From Spironucleus salmonicida (lineage: Eukaryota): a stretch of DNA of 64,000 nucleotides. Positions 26,311 to 52,947 of this stretch are shown here, piece by piece. Both the position numbers and the translations under genes were made by a program. The notes beneath the pieces were generated by a model. It did no database searches. It was not told the DNA's origin and saw only the letters and a program-made list of their open reading frames with translations. The stretch lies in assembly GCF_000497125.1 (NCBI RefSeq), contig NC_090598.1, positions 1,054,001 through 1,118,000 on the forward strand, in the 5' to 3' direction. Position 1 is the first letter of the stretch. Every line of letters begins with the position of its first letter.

Positions 26311-26381
26311 TTCAGTTATATTTTGGAAAGATTAGTAATACTTAAGAACATATAATATAAGTATAATTTTATTAACTAAAA

Positions 26382-29177: not shown

Positions 29178-29440
29178 TTACTTGATTATATTTTATCATG
29201 TAAAACTAAAGTTATGTTTTTATAAGTTTAAGTATTACTAAATAATCATAAATAACATTGCATATATTATAAATATTCAATTTTATATAAAAATAAATCA
29301 GTTATTTTACTATAATCTGGACAATTAGATAACAATTAGCTTAATATTATCAATAACCTCTTCATTTTTAAACATTGTAAATATATTAACGTTAAATAAC
29401 CTGATAAAATTAGTATATTTGGCATTTGAGGTTAAATTAA

Positions 29441-32454: not shown

Positions 32455-32772
32455 TATTAAATGAATGTTAAAAAATGATAATAATATAATCGTTTTTATA
32501 TGTAAATAGATAAAAAGAAATAACAAACCACAAAATTTGAACCACAAAACATAAATAAAAATGATATAAATATATATGTTTAGTATGTAACTTTTAAGTT
32601 AATTCTGAGTACTAGATGAAAATTACTAGTATTCAACCTGAGTTTTCAATAATGATAATGATATTTGGGGCATAATAAGTATATATATCTTGGGAACCAA
32701 TTTTCAGAACCACAAATTTCATCATGTAGATCTACTAAAATACGTATATATAAACCGAGTCCCACCCCCAAA
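32455..32772. promoter_or_regulatory. putative bidirectional AT-rich promoter (phosphoribosyltransferase / CofE-like)
   Basis: 318-bp AT-rich spacer between divergent ATGs; TATATATAAA then CCCACCCCCAAAATG. Confidence 0.55.
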
Positions 32773-33945: not shown

Positions 33946-34003
33946 CGTTTTCCTGCTTATCGCGAGGTGCCGCGGGAGACGACCCGAGTGACACGAAAGA
34001 AGC

Positions 34004-34318
34004 TCACGGAATACCGGCCAGCCCCACGAACAGGGCGAACACCAGGTTGCTGATGACGCCGAAGAACACGCCGACGCGCAGCTCCCCGGGCATGCTGTCG
34101 TGCAGCACGAAGGGGAACGCCAGGACGTTGAACACGAGCCCCACGAGGATCCCGCACACGATCGTCAGCATCTTCTGGAAGCTGCTCATGACGCGGTTCA
34201 CCGGCTGCACGGCGTTCCCCGGCCCCTCCAGGTTCCTCTCCCGCGCGAGCTGCCACAGGTTCTGACCGTTCTGGCCGTCGCTCTGCCACTCCACCTCCAG
34301 CTTGAGCGGCGTCAGGGG
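34004..34318 (-). pseudogene. 3' fragment of the DSC3-like gene (full copy 51946-52947)
   Basis: Matches the C-terminal ~105 codons, then switches to unrelated sequence at 34319; 9-bp deletion. Confidence 0.85.
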
Positions 34319-34371
34319 AGTGCGGGCCGCAGCTAGGGGCTGTCTGCGCTCCTTTTCCGCTCGCACCAAAA

Positions 34372-35862: not shown

Positions 35863-35887
35863 GCCGCTTCGAATCGCTCCGCTCCCA

Positions 35888-36466
35888 ATGCGGCCCTTCT
35901 CGCGGCCCCTCGCAGCGTACGACCAGCGCCTGCGCTCGCGCCAGCCCACGCAGCCCTGCCGGCCGCTCTTCGGCTACCTGCTGTGCGAGTACTTCGCGCA
36001 CGTGCAGCAGCGGCACCGCGGGCTCCCGGCGGACGAGTACATCACGGCGTGCGAGCAGCGCCTGCAGGCCCTGGGCGTGGAGGCCGGTGCGCGCCTCTGG
36101 GAGCAGTTCTGCCTGCGCCGCCTCGAGAGCACGGACCGCGGTGTGCGCGCGCCCCTCGACCTCGGCTCGGCCCAGGACGTGCTGAACGCCGTGCGCGCGC
36201 CCTTCTGGGCCTTCCTCTTCGGCGAGGACGAGCGCCGCGACGTGCAGCAGCTGCGCCTGAAGGACAACAACGGCTTCTACCTGATCGAGCGCGAGCCCGC
36301 CACCGACCAGTACATCTCCTTCCCCCGCGACTACTCCGGCATCCAGCCCAGCGCGGTGCTCAGCGGCGTCATCCGCGCGGTCCTCGGCTGCTGCGGCTTC
36401 GAGAGCGCCGTGAAGGTGTTCCTGAGCGAGGGCCTCACCTACTACGAGGTCGTCCTCCACGAGTGA
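35888..36466 (+). CDS. TRAPP complex subunit Trs31/TRAPPC5-like, copy 1, 192 aa
   Basis: LFGYLLCEY, RLQALGVEAGARL, FWAFLFG, LIEREPATDQYISFPRD, GVIRAVL..CGF. Confidence 0.85.
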   Translation: MRPFSRPLAAYDQRLRSRQPTQPCRPLFGYLLCEYFAHVQQRHRGLPADEYITACEQRLQALGVEAGARLWEQFCLRRLESTDRGVRAPLDLGSAQDVLNAVRAPFWAFLFGEDERRDVQQLRLKDNNGFYLIEREPATDQYISFPRDYSGIQPSAVLSGVIRAVLGCCGFESAVKVFLSEGLTYYEVVLHE

Positions 36467-36481
36467 TTTCCGCTCCCCACA

Positions 36482-37183
36482 ATGCGCTCCCTCACCGCCG
36501 CCCAGCTCCGCGCCGCCATCGGGCTCGTGCCGCTCATCCCGCCGCCCGAGTTCGAGGCAGCCGTACGCACCAGGCGGCCCGCGCTGTTCGTGACGCCCGG
36601 GGCGTACCAGCTGCTGTACGACGCCGTCACCGCCCTGCCCAAGCAGCTGGTGCTCGCCGCCGCCCGCCACACGCTCGTCGTCGGCCAGGACACCGGCCCC
36701 GAGCTCCCCGACGAGACGCTCCGCACGCTGCAGGCCGCGGACCGGCATGCGCTGTGGGTCCGCGCCGGCGTGTCCAAGGTGCAGCTGCAGGCCATGCTCG
36801 CGGCGGACTTCCCGGGGCGGCGCGCGAGGCCCGTGACGCTGACGATGCGCGGGCAGCAGGGCGGCCAGGCGCAGGCCAACCTGGTGTTCCTGGCCGCGCT
36901 CCGCCCCGCGCTGCCCTTCTGCGCCCGCGAGCTGTACCCCACCGGCGGGATGGGCGGCTACCCCGGCAGCCAGGCGCGCACGCACTTCGCCGCGAACTTC
37001 TGGCTGCACCTGCTGCTGCGCGGCGAGCTCTCGGGCCAGCTCGCGGCGTCGCTCCCCGAGGGCCGCGCGCACGGGGGCCAGGCGGAGTACCCCTCGGACA
37101 AGACGCCCCACGTGGCGGCCCTGCAGGAGCACCTGGAGCACGTGGTGCACGCGCGCGTGGCGGCCTTCCTGGGCTCCGAGTGA
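36482..37183 (+). CDS. hypothetical protein, copy 1, 233 aa
   Basis: C-rich motif + ATG, strong GC3 bias, ends GAG TGA. Confidence 0.72.
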   Translation: MRSLTAAQLRAAIGLVPLIPPPEFEAAVRTRRPALFVTPGAYQLLYDAVTALPKQLVLAAARHTLVVGQDTGPELPDETLRTLQAADRHALWVRAGVSKVQLQAMLAADFPGRRARPVTLTMRGQQGGQAQANLVFLAALRPALPFCARELYPTGGMGGYPGSQARTHFAANFWLHLLLRGELSGQLAASLPEGRAHGGQAEYPSDKTPHVAALQEHLEHVVHARVAAFLGSE

Positions 37184-37191
37184 CCGCATGC

Positions 37192-37560
37192 TCACTCCAC
37201 CAGCGCCACCGTCCGTCCGGCGTACTCCAGTAGCATCTGGGCCGGCCCGCTGTCCGGCGGCCTGCGGTGGAAGTAGGTCACTTGCAGCAGCGCGCCCGGT
37301 CCGGTAGGGCCCAGTGCCCGCAGGATGCCCGCGCAGCTCGCCTTGCTGAGGTGCTCCAGCTCGGCCCTGCGCTGCCGGCTGCGGGTCTGCACCCAGAACC
37401 GCGGCGCGGGCGGGCGGAGGCGCAGCGGCTGCAGGGCCGTCCAGAGCGCGCGGACCAGCCCGTCCACCAGCACCTGCCGCCCCAGCTGCAGCCTCAGCAC
37501 GCGGTACGGCTGCCTCCCCCCGACCCTGACCGTAAGCTGGGCGTGCACCATTTCGCTCAT
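37192..37560 (-). CDS. hypothetical basic protein, copy 1, 122 aa
   Basis: MSEMVHAQLTVRVGG...; GC3 bias; ends GAG TGA; start at the edge of the duplicated arm. Confidence 0.65.
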   Translation of the reverse strand: MSEMVHAQLTVRVGGRQPYRVLRLQLGRQVLVDGLVRALWTALQPLRLRPPAPRFWVQTRSRQRRAELEHLSKASCAGILRALGPTGPGALLQVTYFHRRPPDSGPAQMLLEYAGRTVALVE

Positions 37561-37615
37561 TTCAGAGGCACTACTATTAGATAATATTAGTGGCAAATTT
37601 CCATTAGTCCCAAAA

Positions 37616-40048
37616 ATGAGCACGCCAGAGCTGCAGTCAGAGATCATGAAGCATCTGCTGTCACTCGGCGGCGTCTACCTACCATCAAGCACCATAATTT
37701 CGCAGACGCGGCTCCCGGCGTCCGTCCAGGCCCCCTGGGACTTCCTCACCTTCGACTCCACGCTCAACCACGCCGAGGAGGCGCAGGATGTACCCGAAAA
37801 TGAAAAATTCACACAGCAGCAGCCGAAATTGAAGAGCACGATCTTGAAGAGCACAGCGCCCAACATTTTGAACCTCTTCACCCCGGAGCCGCAATGTTCA
37901 AACTTCACGTTCAACGTATCAGAATACGCGCTGTACGTCGGCCAGCAGCTGAACCAGCAGCTTACGCAGAAGCTCCCGAAGGACACGGTGTTCCACTACC
38001 TGGTGTCGCTGGCCCAGAAGCCGTTCCAGCACTGCAAGGCCGCGAAGTCCGACATCGCCTTCGACGCGAAGTTCGAGTCCTCAAACCTCTTCCAGGTCTT
38101 CAAATTCGCGGGGACGACCACCTACGAGCTCTACCTGTTCCCGGACTACCGGCAGATCAGCGGCGGCTTCTGGTGGTTCTTCGGCGTCCAGGGCGGCGCG
38201 AAGGGCGCGAAGTACCAGTTCCGCATCAACAATTTCAGCCAAATGCGCCTCCCGAACGGGTACCGGATGCTCGTTTTCAGGGAGGGCGCGGGGTGGCACA
38301 GGAGCGCGTTTTGCGGCGTCAGCGGCTCGGCGAGCCGGATGCTCAAGACCGCTGAGTACTACGAGAACATTCTGAACGAAAACCGGAACCAAATCGTCGA
38401 AAAAGTCGTCAAAAACGCGAAAAATGCTAACGTGGAAAAGGCAGCTTACAGCTTCATTTTCGACGTGGAAATGGACCAGGAAACGCTGTATTTCGCGAGC
38501 AACTATCCCTACACGTACACGCAGTACATCAACTACGCAAATTCGCTCAGGGAGTTCAAATTCATCAAACTGAAGAAGCTGACGAACTCTGAGTGCTTCA
38601 ATCAGGTGCCGTTTATCGAAATCGACCGGACGCAAAATCCGAAATACGTGATCGTCATCTCAGCCAGAATCCACAGCCAGGACACAAGCGGCAACTACGC
38701 GATCGAGGGCTTTATCGACTTCTTGCTGGGCCGAAAGGACCACATTTTCGAAAAACAGTGCGAGATGATCACCGACGAGGACGAAAAAGTGCGCTACAGG
38801 CAGTTCATGAAGCAGCTAACGAACTACCAGCAGCTGATCCTGAACAATTTCGTTATCGCCATTTTCCCGCTCGTGAACATAGACGCGGTGATCCTCGGAA
38901 ATTCTACCAAAAACTTCGACGGCGTAAATCTCAACAAAGCCGAGCCGATTCTGGCGCAAAACCAGACGTTCAGGGCCATGGGTGCCCAGATTTAGAAGTA
39001 CGTAGACCAGAACCTCCAAATAACGCACTCTTTCGACTTCGCGGAGTCGATTTCGAGCCCGGAAATCAAAATTCAGACCTTCGAAAAGGTGTCCAATACG
39101 GCGCTAACCTAGAAGTTCTGGCAGACGGCCGGAGCCGCAGGCTTCCTGCCGTTCGTGGACTCAGCACAGCACCTGCAGAGCTACTTCGACGAGGAGTCGG
39201 TGAGCCGCGTCGAGCAGGACGGCGTATCGACGGATAAGCTCAAAGGCGATCAGGAGCATGTCGCAGCTGCGCAGTAGGAGGTTGTGGCAGAGCTCAAAAC
39301 ATTTGAGGCCGAGAACGGCGCCCTGGGCGAGTTCGTGCTGCCGGCGCTGATCGCACAGTTCAGCCGCCAGATTATGCAGAAATACGAGTTCAAATTCGAG
39401 CATTTGTCGGTAGTTTCGGCGGTGGAAAAAGAGGGCTTCGGCGCGATTTTGAGCAAGAAATACGGTTGCAGGTTCGCTTTCAAGGTTTATTTGAGCCAAT
39501 TCTACGGAAAAACCGATAAAAGCGATATTTCAAAATGTAATTATTTCGATATATAAGACTATTAAAATTTTGGAATTACATTGGCAGCTTCGATCGCTAG
39601 GCAGGTTAAAGATGATTTTGAGCTTTTCGACGAAATATTAGAGGATCTATAGGCCTAGTACGCGAACTGGCTCGGTGAGTCTCTCAAGATTGCGGTTACG
39701 CGCTAGGGCACACTATCGCTGCTGAAATCGAAAGATCTGGGGCCCTCATGCCAGAAAATGATGAAATTTAAACTCTGGGCGCTTGCGAAGAAGTCGGACA
39801 TTCAGTTGAAGACACTGGACAAGATCAACCATGCGATCGACCTGAACCTGATCTTCGACCTCAGGCAGGAGCTGAAGCTGTTGACAGATTCTGAGGAGGA
39901 GTGGGACGTTGATATCGTAATTGATCCGGAATAAGTAAGAGATGACAAACTCAAAATGAGCGATATCATAAAGTAATGGTACCCTGTGCCGGAAAAAAAG
40001 AAGAAAAAAGGTAAAAAAGGTAAAAAAGGAAAGAATACCAAAAAGTGA
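37616..40048 (+). CDS. cytosolic carboxypeptidase (M14D/CCP/Nna1 family) homolog, probably inactive, 810 aa
   Basis: FDAKFESSNL, WWFF, NYPYTY, ISARIH, FPLVNIDAVILGN; Lys-rich tail; ends AAG TGA. Confidence 0.85.
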
Positions 40049-40538
40049 GCTGATCTGGTTTCTGTATTGGAGAAAGCCTATTATGATAGGAAGGAGCTAC
40101 CAGCTACCACTACATGGTGTAATATCCAAAATATGATATGTTTCGGCGTATGTGAGTCTATTCCGAGCGTTTCTTCGGTTCAGTTATTGAACATTATTTC
40201 TAGCAGCCTGCACTGCCTGGTGAACCTTGGATGTAACATATTATCAATATCCGATAATATAATACTAGAACTGTTTAAACAACACTAAACTGAGGATTGC
40301 GGTGAATGTACAATTAGCTTAGTCTAGCTGTAGTTGGGTGGTGGCCTGATAAAATATAGCAGTTATAGACAGGAAATTTTGCAATTCTGGAGCATCGGCT
40401 CGGTAATTTGGAGTAGAATTACCTATATTTATCTTCAAGAATCAATTTTTTTGCCAGTCCATCCTATGCTGCAAAAATAAAGTTATTGAATTTAAAGTGC
40501 ACAATAGAATATATAATAAGTGTAAAATTTTCACTGAA

Positions 40539-40907
40539 ATGAGCGAAATGGTGCACGCCCAGCTTACGGTCAGGGTCGGGGGGAGGCAGCCGTACCGCGT
40601 GCTGAGGCTGCAGCTGGGGCGGCAGGTGCTGGTGAACGGGCTGGTCCGCGCGCTCTGGACGGCCCTGCAGCCGCTGCGCCTCCGCCCGCCCGCGCCGCGG
40701 TTCTGGGTGCAGACCCGCAGCCGGCAGCGCAGGGCCGAGCTGGAGCACCTCAGCAAGGCGAGCTGCGCGGGCATCCTGCGGGCACTGGGCCCTACCGGAC
40801 CGGGCGCGCTGCTGCAAGTGACCTACTTCCACCGCAGGCCGCCGGACAGCGGGCCGGCCCGGATGCTTCTGGGGTACGCCGGGCGGACGGTGGCGCTGGT
40901 GGAGTGA
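40539..40907 (+). CDS. hypothetical basic protein, copy 2, 122 aa
   Basis: Inverted copy of 37192-37560 with 3 aa differences. Confidence 0.65.
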   Translation: MSEMVHAQLTVRVGGRQPYRVLRLQLGRQVLVNGLVRALWTALQPLRLRPPAPRFWVQTRSRQRRAELEHLSKASCAGILRALGPTGPGALLQVTYFHRRPPDSGPARMLLGYAGRTVALVE

Positions 40908-40915
40908 GCATGCGG

Positions 40916-41617
40916 TCACTCGGAGCCCAGGAAGGCCGCCACGCGCGCGTGCACCACGTGCTCCAGGTGCTCCTGCAGGGCCGCCACGTGGGGCGTCTTG
41001 TCCGAGGGGTACTCCGCCTGGCCCCCGTGCGCGCGGCCCTCGGGGAGCGACGCCGCGAGCTGGCCCGAGAGCTCGCCGCGCAGCAGCAGGTGCAGCCAGA
41101 AGTTCGCGGCGAAGTGCGTGCGCGCCTGGCTGCCGGGGTAGCCGCCCATCCCGCCGGTGGGGTACAGCTCGCGGGCGCAGAAGGGCAGCGCGGGGCGGAG
41201 CGCGGCCAGGAACACCAGGTTGGCCTGCGCCTGGCCGCCCTGCTGCCCGCGCATCGTCAGCGTCACGGGCCTCGCGCGCCGCCCCGGGAAGTCCGCCGCG
41301 AGCATGGCCTGCAGCTGCACCTTGGACACGCCGGCGCGGACCCACAGCGCATGCCGGTCCGCGGCCTGCAGCGTGCGGAGCGTCTCGTCGGGGAGCTCGG
41401 GGCCGGTGTCCTGGCCGACGACGAGCGTGTGGCGGGCGGCGGCGAGCACCAGCTGCTTGGGCAGGGCGGTGACGGCGTCGTACAGCAGCTGGTACGCCCC
41501 GGGCGTCACGAACAGCGCGGGCCGCCTGGTGCGCACGGCTGCCTCGAACTCGGGCGGCGGGATGAGCGGCACGAGCCCGATGGCGGCGCGGAGCTGGGCG
41601 GCGGTGAGGGAGCGCAT
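40916..41617 (-). CDS. hypothetical protein, copy 2, 233 aa
   Basis: Protein identical to 36482-37183. Confidence 0.72.
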   Translation of the reverse strand: MRSLTAAQLRAAIGLVPLIPPPEFEAAVRTRRPALFVTPGAYQLLYDAVTALPKQLVLAAARHTLVVGQDTGPELPDETLRTLQAADRHALWVRAGVSKVQLQAMLAADFPGRRARPVTLTMRGQQGGQAQANLVFLAALRPALPFCARELYPTGGMGGYPGSQARTHFAANFWLHLLLRGELSGQLAASLPEGRAHGGQAEYPSDKTPHVAALQEHLEHVVHARVAAFLGSE

Positions 41618-41632
41618 TGTGGGGAGCGGAAA

Positions 41633-42211
41633 TCACTCGTGGAGGACGACCTCGTAGTAGGTGAGGCCCTCGCTCAGGAACACCTTCACGGCGCTCTCGA
41701 AGCCGCAGCAGCCGAGGACCGCGCGGATGACGCCGCTGAGCACCGCGCTGGGCTGGATGCCGGAGTAGTCGCGGGGGAAGGAGATGTACTGGTCGGTGGC
41801 GGGCTCGCGCTCGATCAGGTAGAAGCCGTTGTTGTCCTTCAGGCGCAGCAGCTGCACGTCGCGGCGCTCGTCCTCGCCGAAGAGGAAGGCCCAGAAGGGC
41901 GCGCGCACGGCGTTCAGCACGTCCTGGGCCGAGCCGAGGTCGAGGGGCGCGCGCACACCGCGGTCCGTGCTCTCGAGGCGGCGCAGGCAGAACTGCTCCC
42001 AGAGGCGCGCACCGGCCTCCACGCCCAGGGCCTGCAGGCGCTGCTCGCACGCCGTGATGTACTCGTCCGCCGGGAGCCCGCGGTGCCGCTGCTGCACGTG
42101 CGCGAAGTACTCGCACAGCAGGTAGCCGAAGAGCGGCCGGCAGGGCTGCGTGGGCTGGCGCGAGCGCAGGCGCTGGTCGTACGCTGCGAGGGGCCGCGAG
42201 AAGGGCCGCAT
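41633..42211 (-). CDS. TRAPP subunit Trs31/TRAPPC5-like, copy 2
   Basis: One aa difference (VQQL vs VQLL) from 35888-36466. Confidence 0.85.
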   Translation of the reverse strand: MRPFSRPLAAYDQRLRSRQPTQPCRPLFGYLLCEYFAHVQQRHRGLPADEYITACEQRLQALGVEAGARLWEQFCLRRLESTDRGVRAPLDLGSAQDVLNAVRAPFWAFLFGEDERRDVQLLRLKDNNGFYLIEREPATDQYISFPRDYSGIQPSAVLSGVIRAVLGCCGFESAVKVFLSEGLTYYEVVLHE

Positions 42212-42236
42212 TGGGAGCGGAGCGATTCGAAGCGGC

Positions 42237-43735
42237 TCACTCCACCAGCGCCCCGCACAGGACGCCCAGCGGCTCGATCTTCTGCCGGTACACGAACACC
42301 ACCAGCCTCGTTGGCAGCGCCACCGGCTGGGAATCGTCCTCCTGGTACACCATGCTGCCCCGCTGGACGTACCGCTGCCCCACCCGGACGTCCAGCTCAA
42401 TGTCCATACCAGGCCTCCGGATGAAGGCCGGGAGCGCGAACTGCTACAGGCTGGCGGTATCCTGCCGCCCGGAGCCCGCCCCAATGTGGCTAACGTTCAG
42501 ATGCATGACCGTCCTGACCCTCACCAGCCTGGCTAGCGCCGGCAGTTGGTCCGGCGTGGTGCGGATGTTGCAGAGCCGGAGCCGCTCCACGCACGGGGCA
42601 CCGACCAGGACCAGGCGGTCCAGACGCACCATATCGAGCTCCAGCACCACGACCGAGGGCTGCAGGTAGAGCTCCAAGATCGTGGTGCTGTTCTTAGCGG
42701 TTCCGCGCACGATAAGCCGCTGGAGCCCGTGTGCTAGCTGCAGCACCCTAGCCAAGGAGGTGCTTACATAGGTCACGTGGCTCAGGAATATATCTCGTAG
42801 GTCCGGCAGCGAATCGGCATCGCAGTAGAAGATCGAATTGATGCAATCCGTGAGGGTGACGCTCCGCAGGCTGGGGCGAAAGTAGATATCGCCCTTTATT
42901 CCGACAAGGACCAGCGTCTTCAGCTATGTCAGTCTAGATATTTATGGTGGACACATTTCATAATCATAATCATCATCTTAATATGTACTTATAGATTTCA
43001 ACGTCAGGCTCTGCAACCCATGAGCCATATTCAATAGTCTATTCAAGGAACGTTAATCATACTACACATCATCGAGGAAGATCTCTCGCAGGTCCGGCAG
43101 CGAATCGGCATCGCACTAGAAGTTATTAACAGAACACAACGTGAGGGTGACGCTCCGCAGGCTGGGGGGAAAGTAGACACTCCCAGTTATTCCATTGAGA
43201 GCTAGCATCTCCAGCTATCTAAGTCCGGACATATCCGGCGCACTCGCGTAAGGCGTACCGCTACGATTCAGTGTCATGTTCTTCAGCTATTTCGCCCCCT
43301 ATAGTATGTTGAGCAGCGGCTGCCAGTTGCTGGCCAATTCGCAGGGTTCTGAAAACTCCTTTGACGTACATGATATGATCACCTCGGTCAGGTTCGGGAG
43401 GTCGCCGCCGTGGGGGTTGCGGCACATAATGGGCGAGTCGACGATGGTGAGCCTGGCGAGGGCGGGCCGACATCCATCTTACCGCTCACGCACTCCAGCC
43501 GCAGATCGCGCACGTTCTCCGCGCACCTGAGCGGCTCCGTCCCGTCCATATCGGCGAGGGCCAGGCTGGTCAGAGCGTCCAGGCGCACTGCGGCGTCCCA
43601 CCTGCCGTCGAGCGAGAGGTGCGCTACGGAGGGATCGGGAAGCTCGGCTGCGGCCGGCAGCGTGGCAGTCAGGAGGCCCTGGGACTCTGGGGGAGCATCC
43701 CCGCCGCGGTCTGCTGCGCGCGCACCATCTGTCAT
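42237..43735 (-). pseudogene. LRR protein copy 2, 1-bp frameshift near 43465, divergent central repeats
   Basis: GGCCCGCCCTC versus GGCCCCGCCCTC in copy 1; downstream frame is open; may be a homopolymer sequencing error. Confidence 0.65.
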
Positions 43736-43788
43736 TTTTGGTGCGAGCGGAAAAGGAGCGCAGACAGCCCCTAGCTGCGGCCCGCACT

Positions 43789-44112
43789 CCCCTGACGCCG
43801 CTGCGGGCGCTCAAGCTGGAGGTGGAGTGGCAGAGCGACGGCCAGAACGGCCAGAACCTGTGGCAGCTCGCGCGGGAGAGGAACCTGGAGGGGCCGGGGA
43901 ACGCCGTGCAGCCGGTGAACCGCGTCATGAGCAGCTTCCAGAAGATGCTGACGATCGTGTGCGGGATCCTCGTGGGGCTCGTGTTCAACGACCTGGCGTT
44001 CCCCTTCGTGCTGCACGACAGCATGCCCGGGGAGCTGCGCGTCGGCGTGTTCTTCGGCGTCATCAGCAACCTGGTGTTCGCCCTGTTCGTGGGGCTGGCC
44101 GGTATTCCGTGA
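43789..44112 (+). pseudogene. 3' fragment of the DSC3-like gene, copy 2
   Basis: Same junction as 34318; V-to-D change in a TM helix. Confidence 0.85.
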
Positions 44113-44170
44113 GCTTCTTTCGTGTCACTCGGGTCGTCTCCCGCGGCACCTCGCGATAAGCAGGAAAACG

Positions 44171-45343
44171 TCACTCGGCGTAGCTCTTGAAGTAGTTCTG
44201 GATCAGCACGAACGGGGTGCCCTTGTCGCCGCTGCCCGTGGTGAGGTCCGCCAGGCTCCCGAGCAGGTCCGTCAGCGCCCGGGGCGTGGTGCCCTGCGCG
44301 GCGATGCTGCCCACCAGGTCCGCGCTCTTGCGCCTGATGAGGGCGCGCATGGCCTGCTCCGCCTCCGGGCCGCGCAGCCCGTCCAGCTCGTTGTCCGCGG
44401 CGTACTTGAGCTTGATCTCGTTGGGGAGCCCGCCGAGACCCGCCGTGAAGCCGGGGCTCACCACGGGGTCCGCCAGCTCCCAGATGCCGCCGACGGGGTC
44501 CTTGAAGGCGCCGTCGCCGAAGACCATGACCTCGAGCGTCCTGCCGGTGCGGGCCAGGAGGTCAGCCTGGATCTGCTCGACCAGGGCCTGCGAGTCGCGG
44601 GGGAAGAGCTTCACCTGGTCGTCCCGGGCGAGGTTGCTGCCGAGGAGCCCGAACTGGGGCTGGAAGCCGGAGCCGTCCACGCTGGCTGTGAGCAGGTCGT
44701 CCAGGCAGAGCACGGTCCGCGCGCCCTGGCTGAGCAGGCGCTGCTTGGTGCGCCCGCGGGAGTGGATGTCCGCGGCGATGACGACGTCGGTGTAGGCGAG
44801 GATGTGCGCGGGGTCGTTGCTCAGCACTATCTCGCAGTTGGGGCCGGCGATGTCTTTGTAGAGGTTAATGTAGTCCACGCCGGTATACTTTAAAACTGTG
44901 GATGGAAAGTGCTTCCTGAACTCCACCTCGGTAAAGTTGTCGCAGTGGGGGTTGATATTTTTCGCGAGCAACTCTTCTATCGGAAACAGGGCATCACCCT
45001 ACTCGTCCGCAGGGTAGGACAGCTGGATGACCACTTTGTCCACGCCCTGCGCGATGCCCTTGAGCAGCATCGAGAAGCGGTTCCGGGACATGATGGGGAA
45101 CACCAGCCCCACCGTGCCGCCGCCGGTCTTGGCGCGGACGTCGGCCGCGATGGCAGCCGTGGAGGCGTAGTTGCCCTGGGCGCGGGCGACGACGGACTCG
45201 GTGATGCAGACCACGTCGCGGTCCTGGAGGGTCACGGAGCTCTCCTGGGCCGCCTTGAGCACGGTATCGACCACGATGGCCCGGAGGTCGTCGCCCTGCT
45301 TGATGATCGGGGCGCGGATGCCGCGGGACACAACGCCTAGCAT
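44171..45343 (-). CDS. F420-0:gamma-glutamyl ligase-like (CofE family), copy 2
   Basis: Translated fragments identical to copy 1. Confidence 0.85.
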
Positions 45344-45661
45344 TTTGGGGGTGGGACTCGGTTTATATATACGTATTTTAGTAGATCTACATGATGAAAT
45401 TTGTGGTTCTGAAAATTGGTTCCCAAGATATATATACTTATTATGCCCCAAATATCATTATCATTATTGAAAACTCAGGTTGAATACTAGTAATTTTCAT
45501 CTAGTACTCAGAATTAACTTAAAAGTTACATACTAAACATATATATTTATATCATTTTTATTTATGTTTTGTGGTTCAAATTTTGTGGTTTGTTATTTCT
45601 TTTTATCTATTTACAAATAAAAACGATTATATTATTATCATTTTTTAACATTCATTTAATA

Positions 45662-46291
45662 ATGTCGACCTGCAAGGTAACAAACCGGCCAATCTCTGAG
45701 ATAACGGCTGGGATAAGAGCACAATATAACCTTAAGTCAAATGCTCATCTGCTTCTTACTATAGAAGAGGTCCAGTTTATCGTCGAAAAGCTAGCAAGAA
45801 ATATTGAAAATCACTACAAAGACATAGTAACGGAATCCAACCCTTTGTACATCGTAGGACTCCTAACCGGTGCCTACCACATTGTATCTGATATCACAAG
45901 ACGTCTTTCCATTCCAGTTCGCGTTTCCTTCATAAAAGTGTCTTCCTATCAGGGGACCGAGTAGCAAGATGCGAAGATCACGGGTGTTACAGATGAAATA
46001 CGAAGTGCCGAAAATGTGCTAATCGTTGATGAACTCTGGGACACCGGAAACTCCGTTCTGGCGGTCTAGAAGCTGCTGAAAGGCGGAGAAATATGCGTCG
46101 CATTTGCGAAGGACATGGGAGCCGTCGGCACTGTCAAATTTCTGGGGAATGCCAGCCTCCCCGACATTTGGTTGCTGGGATACGGCCTGGACTGCAACGG
46201 CTACGGCAGAAACTGGCCCTGTGTAGTGTACTTGAATGACTAGGAATTAGCGGCAGTGGCGTAGTTCAGAAGAGAGTTAGCGATTGAGTGA
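45662..46291 (+). CDS. hypoxanthine/guanine phosphoribosyltransferase, copy 2
   Basis: Inverted copy of 31825-32454. Confidence 0.9.
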
Positions 46292-47382
46292 GGAGCTGAG
46301 TAGCAATTTACACGCCTGATGCGGTGAAATTAAAAAATCTGACCAGTTGTAAGCCCGTACCACAGTCAGTCAAGATATTCCACATAACACAGGTCTAGCA
46401 TATTCAGTGCTTGCAAAATGCAGGACACGATGACGACTACAGCAGTTTCCTGCCATTGACAAGCGAATTCGCGGTTCTGAAGTACCGTCAGCAGTCCCAC
46501 ATATTTAGGACCGTCGCAGCTGCTGGTTCGTCACATCATATCGGTTAATTTCTGCACCTAATGATGATAAGTCCAATGAGTCCACATTTATCACTTGCAG
46601 GTTCACCCACAGCTATCCCGGAAATTAGATATGCGCCCTGATAGTGTAGTCACTCACCGTGCAGTTTTGATTTGTTTCGGTGATAGGGTCAGCTGCAAAA
46701 TCCTCATACCATGGAACATAGCCTGGCTGATGGCGCTAAACTATTCCTACTATATCGAGCTTACTTGAAACAGTGCTATATTAATTATTTGAGTCTGTTG
46801 CCGTTGTGAAGCTGAATTTGAATTAGCAAATTCAATTTTAGGTGGAGTATTTGCAGATAATGCGATAGGTAGATAACTAGTTCAATATTTTATGCTAAGG
46901 TTTACGGTCAGCTTACATAAGACTTATTTTCACCTAAATCAATTTTTTAGTCTAGAAAAATCAAAGTTGACAACCTGTTGAATTTACTGGTAACAAACTT
47001 ATAGTTTTATTAATACTGTACATTCGGTAATTACATTTTATAGATCTCTTTAGTTGTTTTAAGTTAAAGTTTAATGCAACCAGATTTACCGACTGTTAAC
47101 AGATAATTTACGAAATATCTGTTTAAATCAACTCTTATTTTGCTTATCCACTATTAATTTTTAATTACTTGATTAACGGATTAATGCTACTCAAAGTAAG
47201 ATATTTTAGTTTTGCTAATTGGTAGAATTTAGGTTTAGTTCCGTTTGCATCTACGGTTTGCTTAGTAAACTTTGTAATTTCTTAGCTTAATATAGTATTT
47301 TTTATAGATCAGATTCTGACGATACTAGAATAAATTTTATGCTTAATTTTCTTAACCTATATAATATTTGTCGTAAAATTAA

Positions 47383-48675
47383 CCAGGACAGTACGCCACT
47401 TGCGACGACGAGTGGGCTGGAGGGGCCCTGCTCCCTCCGCCGGGTGAGCTTCCCTCTTCTGGCTCATTATCAGCTGCAATGCACTATTTATTACATACGA
47501 TAATACATCTGCGGTTTCTGCCGTGGCCAATACTGCGCGGTAACCGCGGGGAAGTCCGCCCAGCAGGAAGTGCAGGCTCACTCCCGGCCCTGCAGCAAGC
47601 ACCCGGCCGTGATCACGTTGGTTGCCTGCCCACGCTCCTGGCGCCGGCCTAGTGGCAAAATTCCACACTCCACAATGAACTTCGGGCTCTGCGCTTCCTG
47701 CGGCGGACACATGGAGATCGTCTACTGCGACGGGCACTGCTCGCGGGCGTTCTGCGAGCCCTGCATCAACCGAGCGCTGGGCGGCAACCTGTCCCCCCTC
47801 TACGCTAACACCGACGCCGAGTTCCTCTGCTACTCGTGCCTGCGGGGCGAGAAGCGGTGCTGGCTCTGCGGCAGCGGGACCAACCAGCGCGGCGGCTTCG
47901 GCATCTTCACCTGCCGGGCGTGCGGCGCCAGGAGTGAGGAGTGCGGCACGTGCGAGTCCGACGCGCCGGTGGTCACCTGCTACTTCTGCCTCGCCTCCTT
48001 CCACACGGCGTGCTCGGAGGGCGTGCAGCTGGACGACAACGAGGGCGACCTGGTGGTGGGGATCTGCCAGGCCTGTGCGGGGGCGGCTGGCACGGACTTC
48101 GTCGGCGACGGGACCCTCCGCGCGGACCTGCACTGCTACCAGGGCCTGATCGTCCGCGGCTCGCTGTTCGGGGAGTTCTGCGCCGAGTTCTGGCCGGAGA
48201 TTCAGCGGGTCCCCTTCGACGCCGCGCGGCAGCGAGAGATGTGCGACCTGATCAGCCTGGACCGGGACGCCGCGCTGCTGGACACGGTGCCGGACATCCT
48301 GAACTGCCTGGGCCTCCGGAACTACGACCTGGACTTCCTGGGCTGGCTGGTGATCGCGGTCAGGGGCGTGTTCGAGGCCCTGGCGGCCGACCAGTGCTTC
48401 TACGACGTGGTGGAGGCGCGGCTGGAGCCCCACAAGAAGAGCGCTGCCGAGCTCGCCAGGCGGGCTGTCCGGGTGGTGCACGACGACTGAGCCCTGGCGC
48501 CTCCCCTGGGCGTTCTTTCCCTTCCACTCCCGCATTCCATTGCGCGCATATACGAGCGTCCACCTGTGCTCTCTGCAACTTTCCGGGAGAAACCGGCGCG
48601 AAGAACCACATCCCGCATTCGGAGCATCTGGGCCCCTCCAGCCCACTCGTCGTCGCAAGTGGCGTACTGTCCTGG
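47383..48675 (+). mobile_element. 1293-bp TIR cassette, copy 2, at the centre of a long palindrome
   Basis: TIRs 47383-47428 / 48630-48675, TTAA both sides; at least 4 SNPs versus copy 1 outside the CDS. Confidence 0.75.
47675..48490 (+). CDS. tandem PHD/ADD-like zinc-finger protein, copy 2
   Basis: Protein identical to 29733-30548. Confidence 0.82.
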   Translation: MNFGLCASCGGHMEIVYCDGHCSRAFCEPCINRALGGNLSPLYANTDAEFLCYSCLRGEKRCWLCGSGTNQRGGFGIFTCRACGARSEECGTCESDAPVVTCYFCLASFHTACSEGVQLDDNEGDLVVGICQACAGAAGTDFVGDGTLRADLHCYQGLIVRGSLFGEFCAEFWPEIQRVPFDAARQREMCDLISLDRDAALLDTVPDILNCLGLRNYDLDFLGWLVIAVRGVFEALAADQCFYDVVEARLEPHKKSAAELARRAVRVVHDD

Positions 48676-49766
48676 TTAATTTTACGACAAATATTATATA
48701 GGTTAAGAAAATTAAGCATAAAATTTATTCTAGTATCGTCAGAATCTGATATATAAAAAATACTATATTAAGCTAAGAAATTACAAAGTTTACTAAGCAA
48801 ACCGTAGATGCAAACGGAACTAAACCTAAATTCTACCAATTAGCAAAACTAAAATATCTTACTTTGAGTAGCATTAATCCGTTAATCAAGTAATTAAAAA
48901 TTAATAGTGGATAAGCAAAATAAGAGTTGATTTAAACAGATATTTCGTAAATTATCTGTTAATAGTCGGTAAATTTGCTTGCATTAAACTTTAACTTAAA
49001 ACAACTAAAGAGATCTATAAAATGTAATTACCGAATGTACAGTATTAATAAAACTATAAGTTTGTTACCAGTAAATTCAACAGGTTGTCAACTTTGATTT
49101 TTCTAGACTAAAAAATTGATTTAGGTGAAAATAAGTCTTATGTAAGCTGACCGTAAACCTTAGCATAAAATATTGAACTAGTTATCTACCTATCGCATTA
49201 TCTGCAAATACTCCACCTAAAATTGAATTTGCTAATTCAAATTCAGCTTCACAACGGCAACAGACTCAAATAATTAATATAGCACTGTTTCAAGTAAGCT
49301 CGATATAGTAGGAATAGTTTAGCGCCATCAGCCAGGCTATGTTCCATGGTATGAGGATTTTGCAGCTGACCCTATCACCGAAACAAATCAAAACTGCACG
49401 GTGAGTGACTACACTATCAGGGCGCATATCTAATTTCCGGGATAGCTGTGGGTGAACCTGCAAGTGATAAATGTGGACTCATTGGACTTATCATCATTAG
49501 GTGCAGAAATTAACCGATATGATGTGACGAACCAGCAGCTGCGACGGTCCTAAATATGTGGGACTGCTGACGGTACTTCAGAACCGCGAATTCGCTTGTC
49601 AATGGCAGGAAACTGCTGTAGTCGTCATCGTGTCCTGCATTTTGCAAGCACTGAATATGCTAGACCTGTGTTACGTGGAATATCTTGACTGACTGTGGTA
49701 CGGGCTTACAACTGGTCAGATTTTTTAATTTCACCGCATCAGGCGTGTAAATTGCTACTCAGCTCC

Positions 49767-50396
49767 TCACTCAATCGCTAACTCTCTTCTGAACTACGCC
49801 ACTGCCGCTAATTCCTAGTCATTCAAGTACACTACACAGGGCCAGTTTCTGCCGTAGCCGTTGCAGTCCAGGCCGTATCCCAGCAACCAAATGTCGGGGA
49901 GGCTGGCATTCCCCAGAAATTTGACAGTGCCGACGGCTCCCATGTCCTTCGCAAATGCGACGCATATTTCTCCGCCTTTCAGCAGCTTCTAGACCGCCAG
50001 AACGGAGTTTCCGGTGTCCCAGAGTTCATCAACGATTAGCACATTTTCGGCACTTCGTATTTCATCTGTAACACCCGTGATCTTCGCATCTTGCTACTCG
50101 GTCCCCTGATAGGAAGACACTTTTATGAAGGAAACGCGAACTGGAATGGAAAGACGTCTTGTGATATCAGATACAATGTGGTAGGCACCGGTTAGGAGTC
50201 CTACGATGTACAAAGGGTTGGATTCCGTTACTATGTCTTTGTAGTGATTTTCAATATTTCTTGCTAGCTTTTCGACGATAAACTGGACCTCTTCTATAGT
50301 AAGAAGCAGATGAGCATTTGACTTAAGGTTATATTGTGCTCTTATCCCAGCCGTTATCTCAGAGATTGGCCGGTTTGTTACCTTGCAGGTCGACAT
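49767..50396 (-). CDS. hypoxanthine/guanine phosphoribosyltransferase, copy 3
   Basis: Direct copy of 31825-32454. Confidence 0.9.
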
Positions 50397-50714
50397 TATT
50401 AAATGAATGTTAAAAAATGATAATAATATAATCGTTTTTATTTGTAAATAGATAAAAAGAAATAACAAACCACAAAATTTGAACCACAAAACATAAATAA
50501 AAATGATATAAATATATATGTTTAGTATGTAACTTTTAAGTTAATTCTGAGTACTAGATGAAAATTACTAGTATTCAACCTGAGTTTTCAATAATGATAA
50601 TGATATTTGGGGCATAATAAGTATATATATCTTGGGAACCAATTTTCAGAACCACAAATTTCATCATGTAGATCTACTAAAATACGTATATATAAACCGA
50701 GTCCCACCCCCAAA

Positions 50715-51887
50715 ATGCTAGGCGTTGTGTCCCGCGGCATCCGCGCCCCGATCATCAAGCAGGGCGACGACCTCCGGGCCATCGTGGTCGATACCGTGCT
50801 CAAGGCGGCCCAGGAGAGCTCCGTGACCCTCCAGGACCGCGACGTGGTCTGCATCACCGAGTCCGTCGTCGCCCGCGCCCAGGGCAACTACGCCTCCACG
50901 GCTGCCATCGCGGCCGACGTCCGCGCCAAGACCGGCGGCGGCACGGTGGGGCTGGTGTTCCCCATCATGTCCCGGAACCGCTTCTCGATGCTGCTCAAGG
51001 GCATCGCGCAGGGCGTGGACAAAGTGGTCATCCAGCTGTCCTACCCTGCGGACGAGTAGGGTGATGCCCTGTTTCCGATAGAAGAGTTGCTCGCGAAAAA
51101 TATCAACCCCCACTGCGACAACTTTACCGAGGTGGAGTTCAGGAAGCACTTTCCATCCACAGTTTTAAAGTATACCGGCGTGGACTACATTAACCTCTAC
51201 AAAGACATCGCCGGCCCCAACTGCGAGATAGTGCTGAGCAACGACCCCGCGCACATCCTCGCCTACACCGACGTCGTCATCGCCGCGGACATCCACTCCC
51301 GCGGGCGCACCAAGCAGCGCCTGCTCAGCCAGGGCGCGCGGACCGTGCTCTGCCTGGACGACCTGCTCACAGCCAGCGTGGACGGCTCCGGCTTCCAGCC
51401 CCAGTTCGGGCTCCTCGGCAGCAACCTCGCCCGGGACGACCAGGTGAAGCTCTTCCCCCGCGACTCGCAGGCCCTGGTCGAGCAGATCCAGGCTGACCTC
51501 CTGGCCCGCACCGGCAGGACGCTCGAGGTCATGGTCTTCGGCGACGGCGCCTTCAAGGACCCCGTCGGCGGCATCTGGGAGCTGGCGGACCCCGTGGTGA
51601 GCCCCGGCTTCACGGCGGGTCTCGGCGGGCTCCCCAACGAGATCAAGCTCAAGTACGCCGCGGACAACGAGCTGGACGGGCTGCGCGGCCCGGAGGCGGA
51701 GCAGGCCATGCGCGCCCTCATCAGGCGCAAGAGCGCGGACCTGGTGGGCAGCATCGCCGCGCAGGGCACCACGCCCCGGGCGCTGACGGACCTGCTCGGG
51801 AGCCTGGCGGACCTCACCACGGGCAGCGGCGACAAGGGCACCCCGTTCGTGCTGATCCAGAACTACTTCAAGAGCTACGCCGAGTGA
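50715..51887 (+). CDS. F420-0:gamma-glutamyl ligase-like (CofE family), copy 3
   Basis: Direct copy of 32773-33945. Confidence 0.85.
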
Positions 51888-51945
51888 CGTTTTCCTGCTT
51901 ATCGCGAGGTGCCGCGGGAGACGACCCGAGTGACACGAAAGAAGC

Positions 51946-52947
51946 TCACGGAATACCGGCCAGCCCCACGAACAGGGCGAACACCAGGTTGCTGATGACG
52001 CCGAAGAACACGCCGACGCGCAGCTCCCCGGGCATGCTGTCGTGCAGCACGAAGGGGAACGCCAGGACGTTGAACACGAGCCCCACGAGGATCCCGCACA
52101 CGATCGTCAGCATCTTCTGGAAGCTGCTCATGACGCGGTTCACCGGCTGCACGGCGTTCCCCGGCCCCTCCAGGTTCCTCTCCCGCGCGAGCTGCCACAG
52201 GTTCTGACCGTTCTGGCCGTCGCTCTGCCACTCCACCTCCAGCTTGAGCGCCCGCAGCGGCGTCAGGGGCAGCGGCGTGTTCGCGTCGACGAAGGCAAAA
52301 TCGGCAACGCGAAACTCGTCCTGGAGGCGCTCCGGAAGCCCGGCCTCCAGCATCATCAGTGCGAAGGAGACGGGCGCTAGGAACTCCGGCTCGTAAACAG
52401 CGTCCGTGGGGGCGCCCTGCGGGACGTACAGGGGCCGCACCACGAACAGGTCGCCCTCGCGCTCGCAGACCTCCTCCAGCACCGAAATGAAGATGGCGCG
52501 GATCTGCTGCACCTTGGGGGCCGTGTAGCCGCGCGGGGGCTGCAGAATCGCCCCGTTCAGGTACAGGATCTGGAGCTGCTCCTGGGAGAGGTAGCCGGTG
52601 CGCGCCAGGAAGCCCAGGCGTGAGCGTATGACGTCGGCGCGCTCCACGCCGCTCTCGAGGAGCTTCTCGTAGCCCCCGCGGAAGGGGCCGAACGCAGCCT
52701 GGCTCGGGGCGCTCAAGGGCGCCGCTGTGGGCAGGAGCACCTGAATGACGTCGTTTGGCTCGATTTTGAGCGATTGGAAGGTCTGGAAATGGTCCAGGCG
52801 CCTCCCCTGGAACAGGAAAACGGCGGTTTGGTTTTCCTGAATGTGCTCCACCAGGAGTGGCAGGAGCACTGAAACTTTGTCGTCCAGGCTCACTTCCGTC
52901 TCGAACTGGATTGGTTTTGTTGCGAATTTGAGCTTTATGGGAATCAT
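51946..52947 (-). CDS. ubiquitin-like domain + C-terminal TM protein (DSC3-like), intact, 333 aa
   Basis: N-terminal Ubl (FLFQGRRL, IEPNDVIQVL); GGYEKLLESG resembles the Dsc3 GFDRLL motif; two C-terminal TM helices. Confidence 0.75.
   Translation of the reverse strand: MIPIKLKFATKPIQFETEVSLDDKVSVLLPLLVEHIQENQTAVFLFQGRRLDHFQTFQSLKIEPNDVIQVLLPTAAPLSAPSQAAFGPFRGGYEKLLESGVERADVIRSRLGFLARTGYLSQEQLQILYLNGAILQPPRGYTAPKVQQIRAIFISVLEEVCEREGDLFVVRPLYVPQGAPTDAVYEPEFLAPVSFALMMLEAGLPERLQDEFRVADFAFVDANTPLPLTPLRALKLEVEWQSDGQNGQNLWQLARERNLEGPGNAVQPVNRVMSSFQKMLTIVCGILVGLVFNVLAFPFVLHDSMPGELRVGVFFGVISNLVFALFVGLAGIP

What the first reader, a model, noticed from the sequence alone, without database searches (positions are those of the whole stretch)
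43789..52269. 8.5-kb palindrome whose centre is exactly the TIR cassette
Seen: 43789-47428 is the reverse complement of 48630-52269, and the cassette TIRs are the innermost 46 bp of the arms. The flank that follows the right TIR in both cassettes (TTAATTTTACGAC...) is here also joined to the left TIR, replacing the flank seen at 29431. Inference: the inversion breakpoint lies in the TIR, through fold-back or template switching at a short inverted repeat, TIR-TIR recombination, or aberrant transposition. The cassette would then act as a seed for gene amplification.
Basis: partly seen in the sequence, partly recalled or inferred. Interest (0 to 1): 0.75.

Follow-up and report, generated by a model that had tools for sequence, protein, structure and literature searches.

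The report
Inverted triplication seeded by short repeat
In the fish parasite Spironucleus salmonicida, a 3.6-kb gene block sits in three copies, one of them flipped, and the flip is joined at a short inverted repeat that survives unamplified next door; this fits a known way of making inverted duplications and is probably not a transposon.

Summary
In detail: 43789-47428 and 48630-52269 are 3,640-bp inverted arms (7 mismatches) around a 1,201-bp spacer. It is the right half of a larger structure, L-a-c-a'-A-B-S-B'-A'-a-c-a'-A-R (block A three times, cassette c twice), in Spironucleus salmonicida. The short repeat is 53 bp perfect and 63 bp with 3 mismatches, so the junction can lie anywhere in 47376-47428. 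Public short-read contigs show c at 1.3-2.0 and A at 2.5-4.0 times single-copy depth and carry both variant sets of c, but none bridges the junction. The inner 2 kb of the arms is AT-rich and about equally diverged in all three copies, so that part is young. Best reading (0.6): a homology-driven template switch at a pre-existing short inverted repeat, as at junction 1 of DUP-TRP/INV-DUP. The cassette has piggyBac-like ends (TTAA|CC) but no transposase and no sign of further copies; it carries an unannotated ADD/PHD-like gene. A mirror-ordered paralogous block on another contig suggests repeated amplification without dispersed cassettes. Earlier scan notes report other GC-rich palindromes in this genome, not this repeat. 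New member of a known kind.

The parts
29424..29486 (+). a1: left short inverted repeat of the unamplified cassette (perfect 29434-29486; GC-rich core 29441-29486 preceded by TTAA)
29487..30687 (+). c1: cassette interior, first copy (4 differences from c2)
   Evidence: variants of c1 seen in contigs of X2, X3, X5
29733..30548 (+). Cys-rich ADD/PHD-like ORF, 271 aa, GC3 0.96; not in the protein collection, no homologue found; 29562-29732 may be a decayed in-frame N-terminal finger
30688..30750 (-). a'1: right short inverted repeat (core 30688-30733 followed by TTAA)
30751..34319 (.). A1: first copy of the triplicated block: AT-rich inner 2 kb with a phosphoribosyltransferase gene (31825-32454, -), GC-rich outer part with F420:gamma-glutamyl ligase (32773-33945, +) and the 3' part only of a Dsc3-like gene
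34320..37565 (.). B1: GC-rich arm of an older inverted repeat (LRR gene, TRAPP subunit, two orphan genes)
37566..40533 (.). S: single-copy spacer of the 6.9-kb inverted repeat, cytosolic carboxypeptidase-like gene 37616-40048 (+)
40534..43788 (-). B2: inverted copy of B (7 differences in 1,703 bp outside the LRR gene; LRR gene patchily diverged, with a 1-base gap)
43789..47365 (-). A2: inverted copy of block A, left arm of the reported palindrome
47366..47428 (+). a2: recombinant repeat; the inversion junction lies within 47376-47428
47429..48629 (+). c2: cassette interior, second copy, same orientation as c1; spacer of the palindrome; ADD/PHD-like ORF 47675-48490
   Evidence: all 4 c2 variants in one contig of X1
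48630..52269 (+). a'2 + A3: right arm of the palindrome, third copy of block A
51946..52947 (-). Intact Dsc3-like gene (ubiquitin-like N-terminus, Dsc3_C), crossing the outer edge of the right arm; marks A-R as the ancestral adjacency

Best explanation
A real, chromosomal inverted triplication. SHOWN: the layout L-a-c-a'-A1-B1-S-B2'-A2'-a-c-a'-A3-R; c twice in direct orientation, A three times with the middle copy inverted; the inversion junction inside the 53-bp perfect repeat; the Dsc3-like gene whole only across A3-R. INFERRED: the 53-63-bp inverted repeat around c existed first (as still seen at 29424-30750). A strand copying block A backwards reached the repeat, paired with the other repeat copy 1.2 kb away (fold-back, template switch, or annealing of two repair strands), and went on forwards through c and A into R. 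This made the AT-rich inner 2 kb of the arms and the second c in one relatively recent event. The GC-rich outer parts (F420 ligase, Dsc3 3' part, B) are older duplicates. The repeat acted as a passive homology substrate, not as a transposase-bound end. Likely effect: extra dosage of the phosphoribosyltransferase, F420 ligase and ADD/PHD-like genes; whether selected is unknown. The origin of the short repeat itself is not explained.
For: Layout and variant tables. Private variants in the inner 2,010 bp are 3:3:2 for A1:A2:A3, and c1-c2 differ at 4 of 1,201 sites against 3.2 expected at the same age: one event fits both. The 3 differences in the outer 10 bp of a1 cannot have arisen since that event (0.03 expected), so they are older or junction homeology. 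Inner arm GC 37% and PRTase GC3 0.53 against 66% and 0.93 for the outer part. Contig depth relative to L in 3 of 3 DNA runs laid: c 1.54, 1.27, 1.98; A 2.48, 3.96, 3.14; S 0.82, 1.09, 0.96 (the tool warns that depth is no copy number, and the three runs are one sample). Contigs break exactly where a 53-bp repeat and the 37565 arm edge predict, and both variant sets of c are present. Only one new, homology-based junction is needed. Precedent: junction 1 of DUP-TRP/INV-DUP lies in an inverted repeat pair (PMC11293582, passages); Leishmania makes inverted duplications at repeats a few kb apart (PMC4256157, passages).
Against: No contig bridges A2-a-c2; the junction rests on the window itself plus depth balance. 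B, expected twice, shows 1.18, 0.58 and 0.91 times L; it is 73% GC, which may explain this but was not tested. The structure does not collapse to one reference in two switches, because the third copy runs into R while B and single-copy S lie only in the middle, so older events are needed. A 53-bp repeat is far shorter than the human substrates (Alu to >10 kb) and the Leishmania ones (>200 bp). The order seed-then-palindrome is inferred by parsimony; no outgroup was available.
Confidence: 0.6

Rival explanations
1. Reverse order: the long palindrome formed first (fold-back with c as spacer), and repeat a at 29424-29486 is just the innermost 63 bp of an arm, left when a second copy of c-A was joined to L by microhomology or a one-sided conversion tract. 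The 'TIR' would be a product, not a seed.
For: Identity runs 17 bp beyond the GC core into AT-rich flank, 10 of 13 matches beyond the TTAA (P = 0.008 in 100,000 ungapped shuffles), then stops: this is how a homeologous junction looks. A 6-bp match follows a 3-base offset on the inner side. Yeast inverted triplications are secondarily trimmed to spacers of 1.1-34.9 kb in 5-10% of cases (PMC10766186, passages).
Against: Needs two new non-homologous junctions at about the same time instead of one homologous switch. With gaps allowed, the outward match is not significant (7% and 27% of 300 shuffles) nor is the inward one (16%). The ORF that spans L-a-c-a'-A on the minus strand is held by more sources than the one spanning the palindrome centre, which says the first arrangement is well supported but not that it is older.
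Confidence: 0.18
2. The cassette is a non-autonomous piggyBac-like DNA element that captured an ADD/PHD-like gene; a transposase acting on ends on sister chromatids joined the left end to the right-hand flank at TTAA and made the inverted duplication (alternative transposition).
For: TTAA directly outside both ends, and the first six bases fit the piggyBac terminal motif given in PMC5381638 (passages); TTAA plus that motif occurs at 0.09% of positions in the AT-rich parts of the window. GC content drops exactly at that edge. RepeatMasker lists 29 DNA transposons in this species (PMC11787283, passage).
Against: Both ends are the same sequence, so this is one observation at a boundary chosen afterwards. 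Identity continues beyond the TTAA. The ORF has no transposase family and no homologue. The interior is one unbranched 1,261-nt contig at 1.3-2.0 times L in 3 of 3 DNA runs, and laid depth over the repeat allows at most 3.8-4.4 times L (weak, short contigs may be filtered). A 46-bp TIR is long for the family (mean 14 bp, one case of 50). A diverged relative of the ORF elsewhere is joined at 29706 to carboxypeptidase-like sequence, not to the repeat.
Confidence: 0.12
3. Assembly artefact: fold-back reads or unmerged haplotypes produced the junction at 47366-47428.
For: No contig bridges it. Copy differences (0.14-0.33%) are of the same order as the allelic heterozygosity published for this species (0.15%, PMC3916229; 0.09%, PMC9509377). 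The ORF spanning this junction is held by fewer sources than the one spanning L-a-c. No genome or raw long reads were available.
Against: A fold-back read gives identical arms and no directly oriented second spacer; here arms differ at 7 sites and c2 at 4, and c2, A2 and A2/A3 variants are seen in short-read contigs. A at about 3 and c at 1.3-2 times single-copy depth require a third A to meet the repeat from the left of c.
Confidence: 0.07

Closest known systems
DUP-TRP/INV-DUP inverted triplications (human MECP2, PLP1 loci; PMC11293582 and PMC10766186, passages read)
   Same: Triplicated block with the middle copy inverted, flanked on one side by a directly duplicated segment that lies between an inverted repeat pair; that junction falls inside the repeat.
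   Different: Repeat is 53-63 bp instead of Alu-size to >10 kb; the other side is an older 3.2-kb inverted repeat around a single-copy spacer, and the structure does not collapse to one reference in two switches; present in an assembled protist genome, not a patient allele.
[quoted passage not shown]
   Same: A pre-existing inverted repeat becomes the centre of a long inverted duplication and its spacer is kept; Leishmania uses repeats 3-10 kb apart.
   Different: Here the product is interstitial and low-copy, not a free linear amplicon or programmed rDNA; no break site or selection is known.
ODIRA (yeast SUL1; PMC10766186, passages)
   Same: Interstitial inverted triplication with junction at an interrupted inverted repeat.
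   Different: ODIRA junctions use about 5-nt repeats 40-80 nt apart; here 53-63 bp, 1,201 bp apart. Origin not testable.
piggyBac-like elements (PMC5381638, passages) and alternative transposition (maize Ac/Ds; PMC4270019, PMC3744419, search listing only)
   Same: TTAA outside both ends; terminal hexamer fits the family motif.
   Different: No transposase, long repeat, identity beyond the TTAA, no dispersed copies seen.
GC-rich gene-converted palindromes (primate X; PMC8981503, abstract only; AI notes on other palindromes in this genome)
   Same: B arms and the outer part of A are GC-saturated (GC3 0.93-0.98) up to the 37565 edge.
   Different: The inner 2 kb of the reported palindrome is not GC-enriched, and its two arms are no more alike than each is to the third copy.

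Membership tests
DUP-TRP/INV-DUP | Triplicated segment with the middle copy inverted | tested here: met
   A1 forward, A2 inverted, A3 forward
DUP-TRP/INV-DUP | One junction inside a pre-existing inverted repeat pair, segment between the pair duplicated | tested here: met
   Junction in 47376-47428; c duplicated in direct orientation. That the pair is older than the event is inferred.
DUP-TRP/INV-DUP | Two junctions in cis that derive the whole structure from one reference, duplications on both sides | tested here: not met
   Third copy continues into R (intact Dsc3-like gene); B and single-copy S occur only in the middle; at least three non-reference junctions
DUP-TRP/INV-DUP | Second junction with microhomology or blunt ends | not testable with these tools
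   The parental sequence on the B side of 34319/34320 is not in the window; no genome held
ODIRA amplicon | Junctions at about 5-nt inverted repeats 40-80 nt apart | tested here: not met
   53-63 bp, 1,201 bp apart against PMC10766186
ODIRA amplicon | Replication origin inside the amplified segment | not testable with these tools
   No origin data
Short-repeat-seeded palindrome (Tetrahymena/yeast/Leishmania type) | Repeat and its spacer kept at the centre of the long inverted duplication | tested here: met
Short-repeat-seeded palindrome (Tetrahymena/yeast/Leishmania type) | DNA break next to the repeat; free or high-copy amplicon | tested here: inconclusive
   Break not testable; contig depth suggests about three copies of A, no high amplification
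piggyBac-like element | TTAA on both sides | tested here: met
   29437-29440 and 30734-30737
piggyBac-like element | Terminal six bases fit the family motif | tested here: met
   motif is permissive
piggyBac-like element | Inverted identity ends at the target duplication; TIR of about 12-19 bp | tested here: not met
   46-bp core; 3 further perfect bases and 10 of 13 matches beyond TTAA; family mean 14 bp, one case of 50
piggyBac-like element | DDD transposase encoded (autonomous form) | tested here: not met
   No transposase family for the + or - strand ORFs; no homologues
piggyBac-like element | Dispersed copies with unrelated flanks, or an empty site | tested here: inconclusive
   Both window copies share the right flank; depth suggests no more but no genome-wide search was possible
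GC-biased arm-to-arm converted palindrome | Arms GC-richer than flanks to their edges | tested here: not met
   Inner 2,010 bp 37% GC, intergenic part 23-31%; outer 1,559 bp 66%; private variants 4 S>W, 2 W>S in the inner part
GC-biased arm-to-arm converted palindrome | Arms more alike than other copies | tested here: not met
   A2-A3 7 substitutions; A1-A3 5 plus one indel; A1-A2 8 plus one indel
ADD (ATRX-DNMT3-DNMT3L) domain, for the cassette ORF | Significant similarity to the GATA-like plus PHD finger | tested here: inconclusive
   ATRX ADD chains match at E 0.84 and 0.49 with the PHD cysteines aligned; Atlas feature hits are PHD families at 0.76-0.80, lead level; model pLDDT 36.9 unusable

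The most novel reading that the evidence does not exclude
The 1.3-kb cassette is a TTAA-targeting, piggyBac-like non-autonomous element, of a kind my searches did not find described for Spironucleus, that has captured an ADD-type chromatin-reader gene and whose ends actively trigger palindromic amplification of neighbouring metabolic genes; it would then be caught with seed and product side by side and would supply the birth step for the many GC-rich palindromes of this genome.
Probability: 0.08. Interest if true: 0.7.

Novelty: new member of a known kind. Interest (0 to 1): 0.3.

Why it matters
Inverted duplication at a short inverted repeat is an established route to gene amplification; this is a clean natural example in a diplomonad, with the probable parent structure preserved 18 kb from the product. 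About 19% of this species' genome is duplicated and GC-richer than the rest (PMC9509377), and how those duplicates start is not described in the passages I read. The locus offers a time-zero control: 2 kb of palindrome arm that is 99.8% identical yet still AT-rich, next to GC-saturated older arms, which is what a gene-conversion explanation of the GC islands predicts for a young palindrome. It also exposes a likely annotation error: the public gene set holds the antisense frames across the cassette and misses a codon-biased, Cys-rich ADD/PHD-like gene.

Tried and rejected
No whole genome is held, so no genome-wide search for the repeat. No RNA holder listed as on record; X5-X8 are guessed RNA. 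In X5 the cassette contig starts at 29507 and no listed piece covers the left repeat; a part without cover proves nothing. Rfam: 0 matches in the window at gathering score and 0 in 29200-31900 at E <= 5; no tRNA. The 53-bp repeat has no unusual fold of its own (z -0.23). A 22-nt piece of the core: 0 exact matches in metagenome contigs. Cassette ORF: 0 homologues in two large searches; antisense frame finds only itself; single-sequence structure model too poor for a fold search (pLDDT 36.9), so none was run. Idea that the repeat is the 5' coding part of the cassette gene (the arm supplies an in-frame ATG at 47339, 383 aa): rejected as likely incidental; 29442-29561 shows no codon bias (P 0.21), 47339-47383 scores poorly, and ATG 29733 has the C-rich context of neighbouring starts; a language-model look-alike check of that longer reading stayed open. 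Decayed longer repeat outside the 63 bp: none seen. Dsc3 remnant peptides were not in the protein collection, so the gene between F420 ligase and LRR on the other contig stayed unidentified. Earlier scan notes: nothing near this place or like these sequences; one search gave 8 unrelated notes. Literature searches for this locus or for piggyBac/palindromes in Spironucleus or Giardia gave nothing on it. Supplements of papers were not read; repeat tables there could bear on the transposon question.
Full report
1. Observation. A self-comparison of the window confirms that 43789-47428 is the reverse complement of 48630-52269: 3,640 bp, 7 substitutions, no gaps, with 1,201 bp between the arms. The same comparison shows that this is part of something larger: 30688-37565 pairs with 40534-47428 (98.2%) and 29424-34308 repeats directly at 47366-52250 (99.75%). 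Alignments give the layout L - a c a' - A1 - B1 - S - B2' - A2' - a c a' - A3 - R, where a/a' is the short repeat, c the 1,201-bp interior, A 3.57 kb, B 3.25 kb and S 2.97 kb. In the first cassette the repeat is perfect over 53 bp (29434-29486 / 30688-30740) and 60 of 63 over 29424-29486 / 30688-30750. The junction that makes the palindrome can therefore lie anywhere in 47376-47428, not specifically at 47382/47383.

2. Organism and genes. Long frames open under table 6 and give Pfam matches: phosphoribosyltransferase, F420:gamma-glutamyl ligase, LRR, TRAPP subunit, a weak carboxypeptidase match, and a ubiquitin-like/Dsc3_C protein. Cluster members of these proteins are named Spironucleus salmonicida. 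The Dsc3-like gene is whole only across A3-R (51946-52947); A1 and A2 hold its last 105 codons joined to B. So A-R is the ancestral adjacency and A-B is derived. No whole genome is held.

3. Is it real? I laid 4 of 8 listed runs (X1-X3, one sample, DNA guessed; X5, second sample, RNA guessed) on 25534-40533. All are contigs, and the tool warns that depth is no copy number. Relative to L, depth in X1, X2, X3 is 1.54, 1.27, 1.98 for c; 2.48, 3.96, 3.14 for the inner part of A; 0.82, 1.09, 0.96 for S; and 1.18, 0.58, 0.91 for B. The first three fit 2:3:1; B does not fit 2 and is 73% GC, a possible but untested cause. Contigs end at 29463, 29457/30717 and 30711, as a 53-bp repeat predicts, and at 37565, the B arm edge, in 3 of 3 DNA runs. 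X1's cassette contig carries all 4 variants of c2, while X2, X3 and X5 show those of c1; an A2-only variant (31036), two A2/A3 variants and the 9-base A2/A3 state at 34304 are also seen; X2's B contig has 7 other letters, the number of B1-B2 differences there. X5 bridges c-a'-A. No contig bridges A2-a-c2. If A is present three times next to the repeat and c twice, one A must meet c from the left, which is the reported junction; that is an inference. Copy differences are of the order of published allelic heterozygosity (0.15% and 0.09%; PMC3916229 passages; PMC9509377 passages and first third of the text), so an assembly error is not fully excluded (0.07).

4. Age structure. Private variants in the inner 2,010 bp of A are 3:3:2 for the three copies, and c1-c2 differ at 4 of 1,201 sites against 3.2 expected at that rate: the inner arms and the second cassette fit one event. 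The two palindrome arms are no closer to each other (7) than to A1 (8 and 5, plus one indel). The inner 2 kb is 37% GC with a PRTase GC3 of 0.53; the outer part of A is 66% GC, and F420 ligase, TRAPP and the two orphan genes of B have GC3 0.93-0.98, with GC falling at the 37565 edge. Earlier AI notes on this genome (unchecked leads) tie GC-rich islands to old, gene-converted inverted repeats, and PMC9509377 reports duplicated regions at 44.7% GC against 30.7%. On that reading B-S-B' and the outer A are old and the AT-rich inner arms young. This clock is an inference: the single-copy N-terminal half of the Dsc3-like gene is GC-rich too, so GC does not track duplication perfectly.

5. The block is amplified elsewhere. 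F420 ligase paralogues at 93-94% identity and LRR paralogues at 64-80% lie on another, 1.07-Mb contig. Their accession order is LRR 785, F420 787, F420 799, LRR 801, LRR 827, F420 829 (one further F420 accession was not shown), which suggests alternating orientation; gene order from accession numbers is an inference. The PRTase cluster has one member only. Contigs show a diverged relative of the unit with deletions in B and a join from carboxypeptidase-like sequence (38260) to 29706, just before the cassette ORF and inside the left repeat, in 3 of 3 DNA runs. So repeated amplification follows the F420-LRR block, and at least one relative of the cassette gene is not preceded by the repeat.

6. 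Is the cassette a transposon? For: TTAA lies directly outside both 46-bp cores and the first six bases fit the piggyBac terminal motif (PMC5381638, passages); that combination occurs at 0.09% of AT-rich positions. Against: the two ends are one sequence and the boundary was chosen afterwards; identity continues beyond the TTAA (10 of 13, P 0.008 ungapped; 7% of 300 shuffles with gaps); no transposase family on either strand; interior unbranched at 1.3-2 times single-copy depth; laid depth over the repeat at most 3.8-4.4 times L (weak because short contigs may be filtered). The two genome papers contain no 'transpos', 'invert' or 'palindrom' in their main text; PMC11787283 mentions 29 RepeatMasker DNA transposons without naming them.

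7. The cassette gene. The + strand ORF 29733-30548 (271 aa, no TAA/TAG) has GC3 0.96, the best codon score of six frames, a start context like its neighbours, and 0 differences between copies in 816 bp against 4 in 385 bp of flank (Fisher P 0.010). It has no homologue at E <= 0.001; ATRX ADD chains match weakly (E 0.84; 0.49 with the upstream frame) and Atlas hits are PHD families at lead level. The collection holds the antisense frames (544 and 521 aa) instead. The in-frame stretch 29562-29732 keeps some codon bias (P 0.003) and lines up with the ATRX GATA-like finger, but all 3 copy differences there change the residue, so it looks like a relic. ADD-like is a lead, not a result.

8. Mechanism. 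Shown: layout, position of the junction within the repeat, intact gene across A3-R. Inferred (0.6): the repeat came first; a strand copying A backwards met the repeat, paired with its partner 1.2 kb away, and went on forwards through c and A. Fold-back, template switch and annealing of two repair strands all leave this same sequence and cannot be told apart. The three outer mismatches of a1 cannot have arisen since the event (0.03 expected). Rivals: the repeat is the stump of an arm in a later copy (0.18); transposase-driven joining at TTAA (0.12); assembly error (0.07).

9. Comparison. [quoted passage not shown] It is not a textbook member of DUP-TRP/INV-DUP (it does not derive from one reference in two switches), nor of ODIRA (repeat and spacer far too long), nor shown to be a piggyBac element. 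GC-biased arm conversion (PMC8981503, abstract only) fits B but not the inner arms. Sharp GC shifts in this genome are in print (PMC1805757, passages). My searches found no paper on this locus; supplements were not read.

10. Verdict. Real with high probability, mechanism of a known kind, one event. Interest 0.3: a tidy natural seed-and-product pair, a useful young control for the GC-island question, and a missed gene. The transposon reading (0.08 in its strong form) would deserve 0.7.

Noticed in passing
window 29733-30548 (+) and 47675-48490 (+): Codon-biased Cys-rich ADD/PHD-like ORF is absent from the protein collection; the antisense frames 29298-30932 and 47309-48874 are held instead, probably a strand error in annotation.
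   Followed up: partly
window 29708-29723, 37588-37603, 47650-47665: A 16-bp motif (15 of 16 identical) lies just upstream of both the cassette ORF and the carboxypeptidase-like gene; 4 matches with up to 2 mismatches against 0.06 expected. Promoter element or trace of an old fusion; the paralogous join at 29706 falls right beside it.
   Followed up: partly
window 29430-29442: The L|a edge holds a 13-bp perfect palindrome; two of the three differences from the arm version are those that perfect it, which would fit local quasi-palindrome correction or hairpin opening. Post hoc, untested.
   Followed up: no
window 43851-43896, 34220-34265, 52162-52207: The 46-bp core matches the Dsc3-like coding region at 27-28 of 46 positions, including 11 in a row; probably chance in GC-rich DNA.
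   Followed up: no
window 34372-35862 and 42237-43735: The two LRR copies differ heavily in an AT-richer middle (about 34860-35270) but little at the GC-rich ends; the second copy has a 1-base gap near 43467 that breaks its frame.
   Followed up: partly
window 47339-48490 (+): The inverted arm supplies an in-frame ATG, giving a 383-aa reading through the repeat into the cassette ORF; the first copy has a stop at 29427. Probably incidental.
   Followed up: yes
window 30751-31824: About 1.07 kb without a convincing ORF between the repeat and the PRTase gene, GC rising from 25% to 50%; triplicated; no Rfam match.
   Followed up: partly
window 14311-14429 and 16234-16352: A 119-nt direct repeat at 75% identity; 596-3538 and 16005-17090 read like further LRR-type proteins sharing a C-terminal pattern with the B gene (by eye).
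   Followed up: no
window 29142-29297: Contigs of three DNA runs show a single-copy-depth joint 29297 to 29142 with 39 other letters, suggesting a relative of the end of the L gene elsewhere.
   Followed up: no
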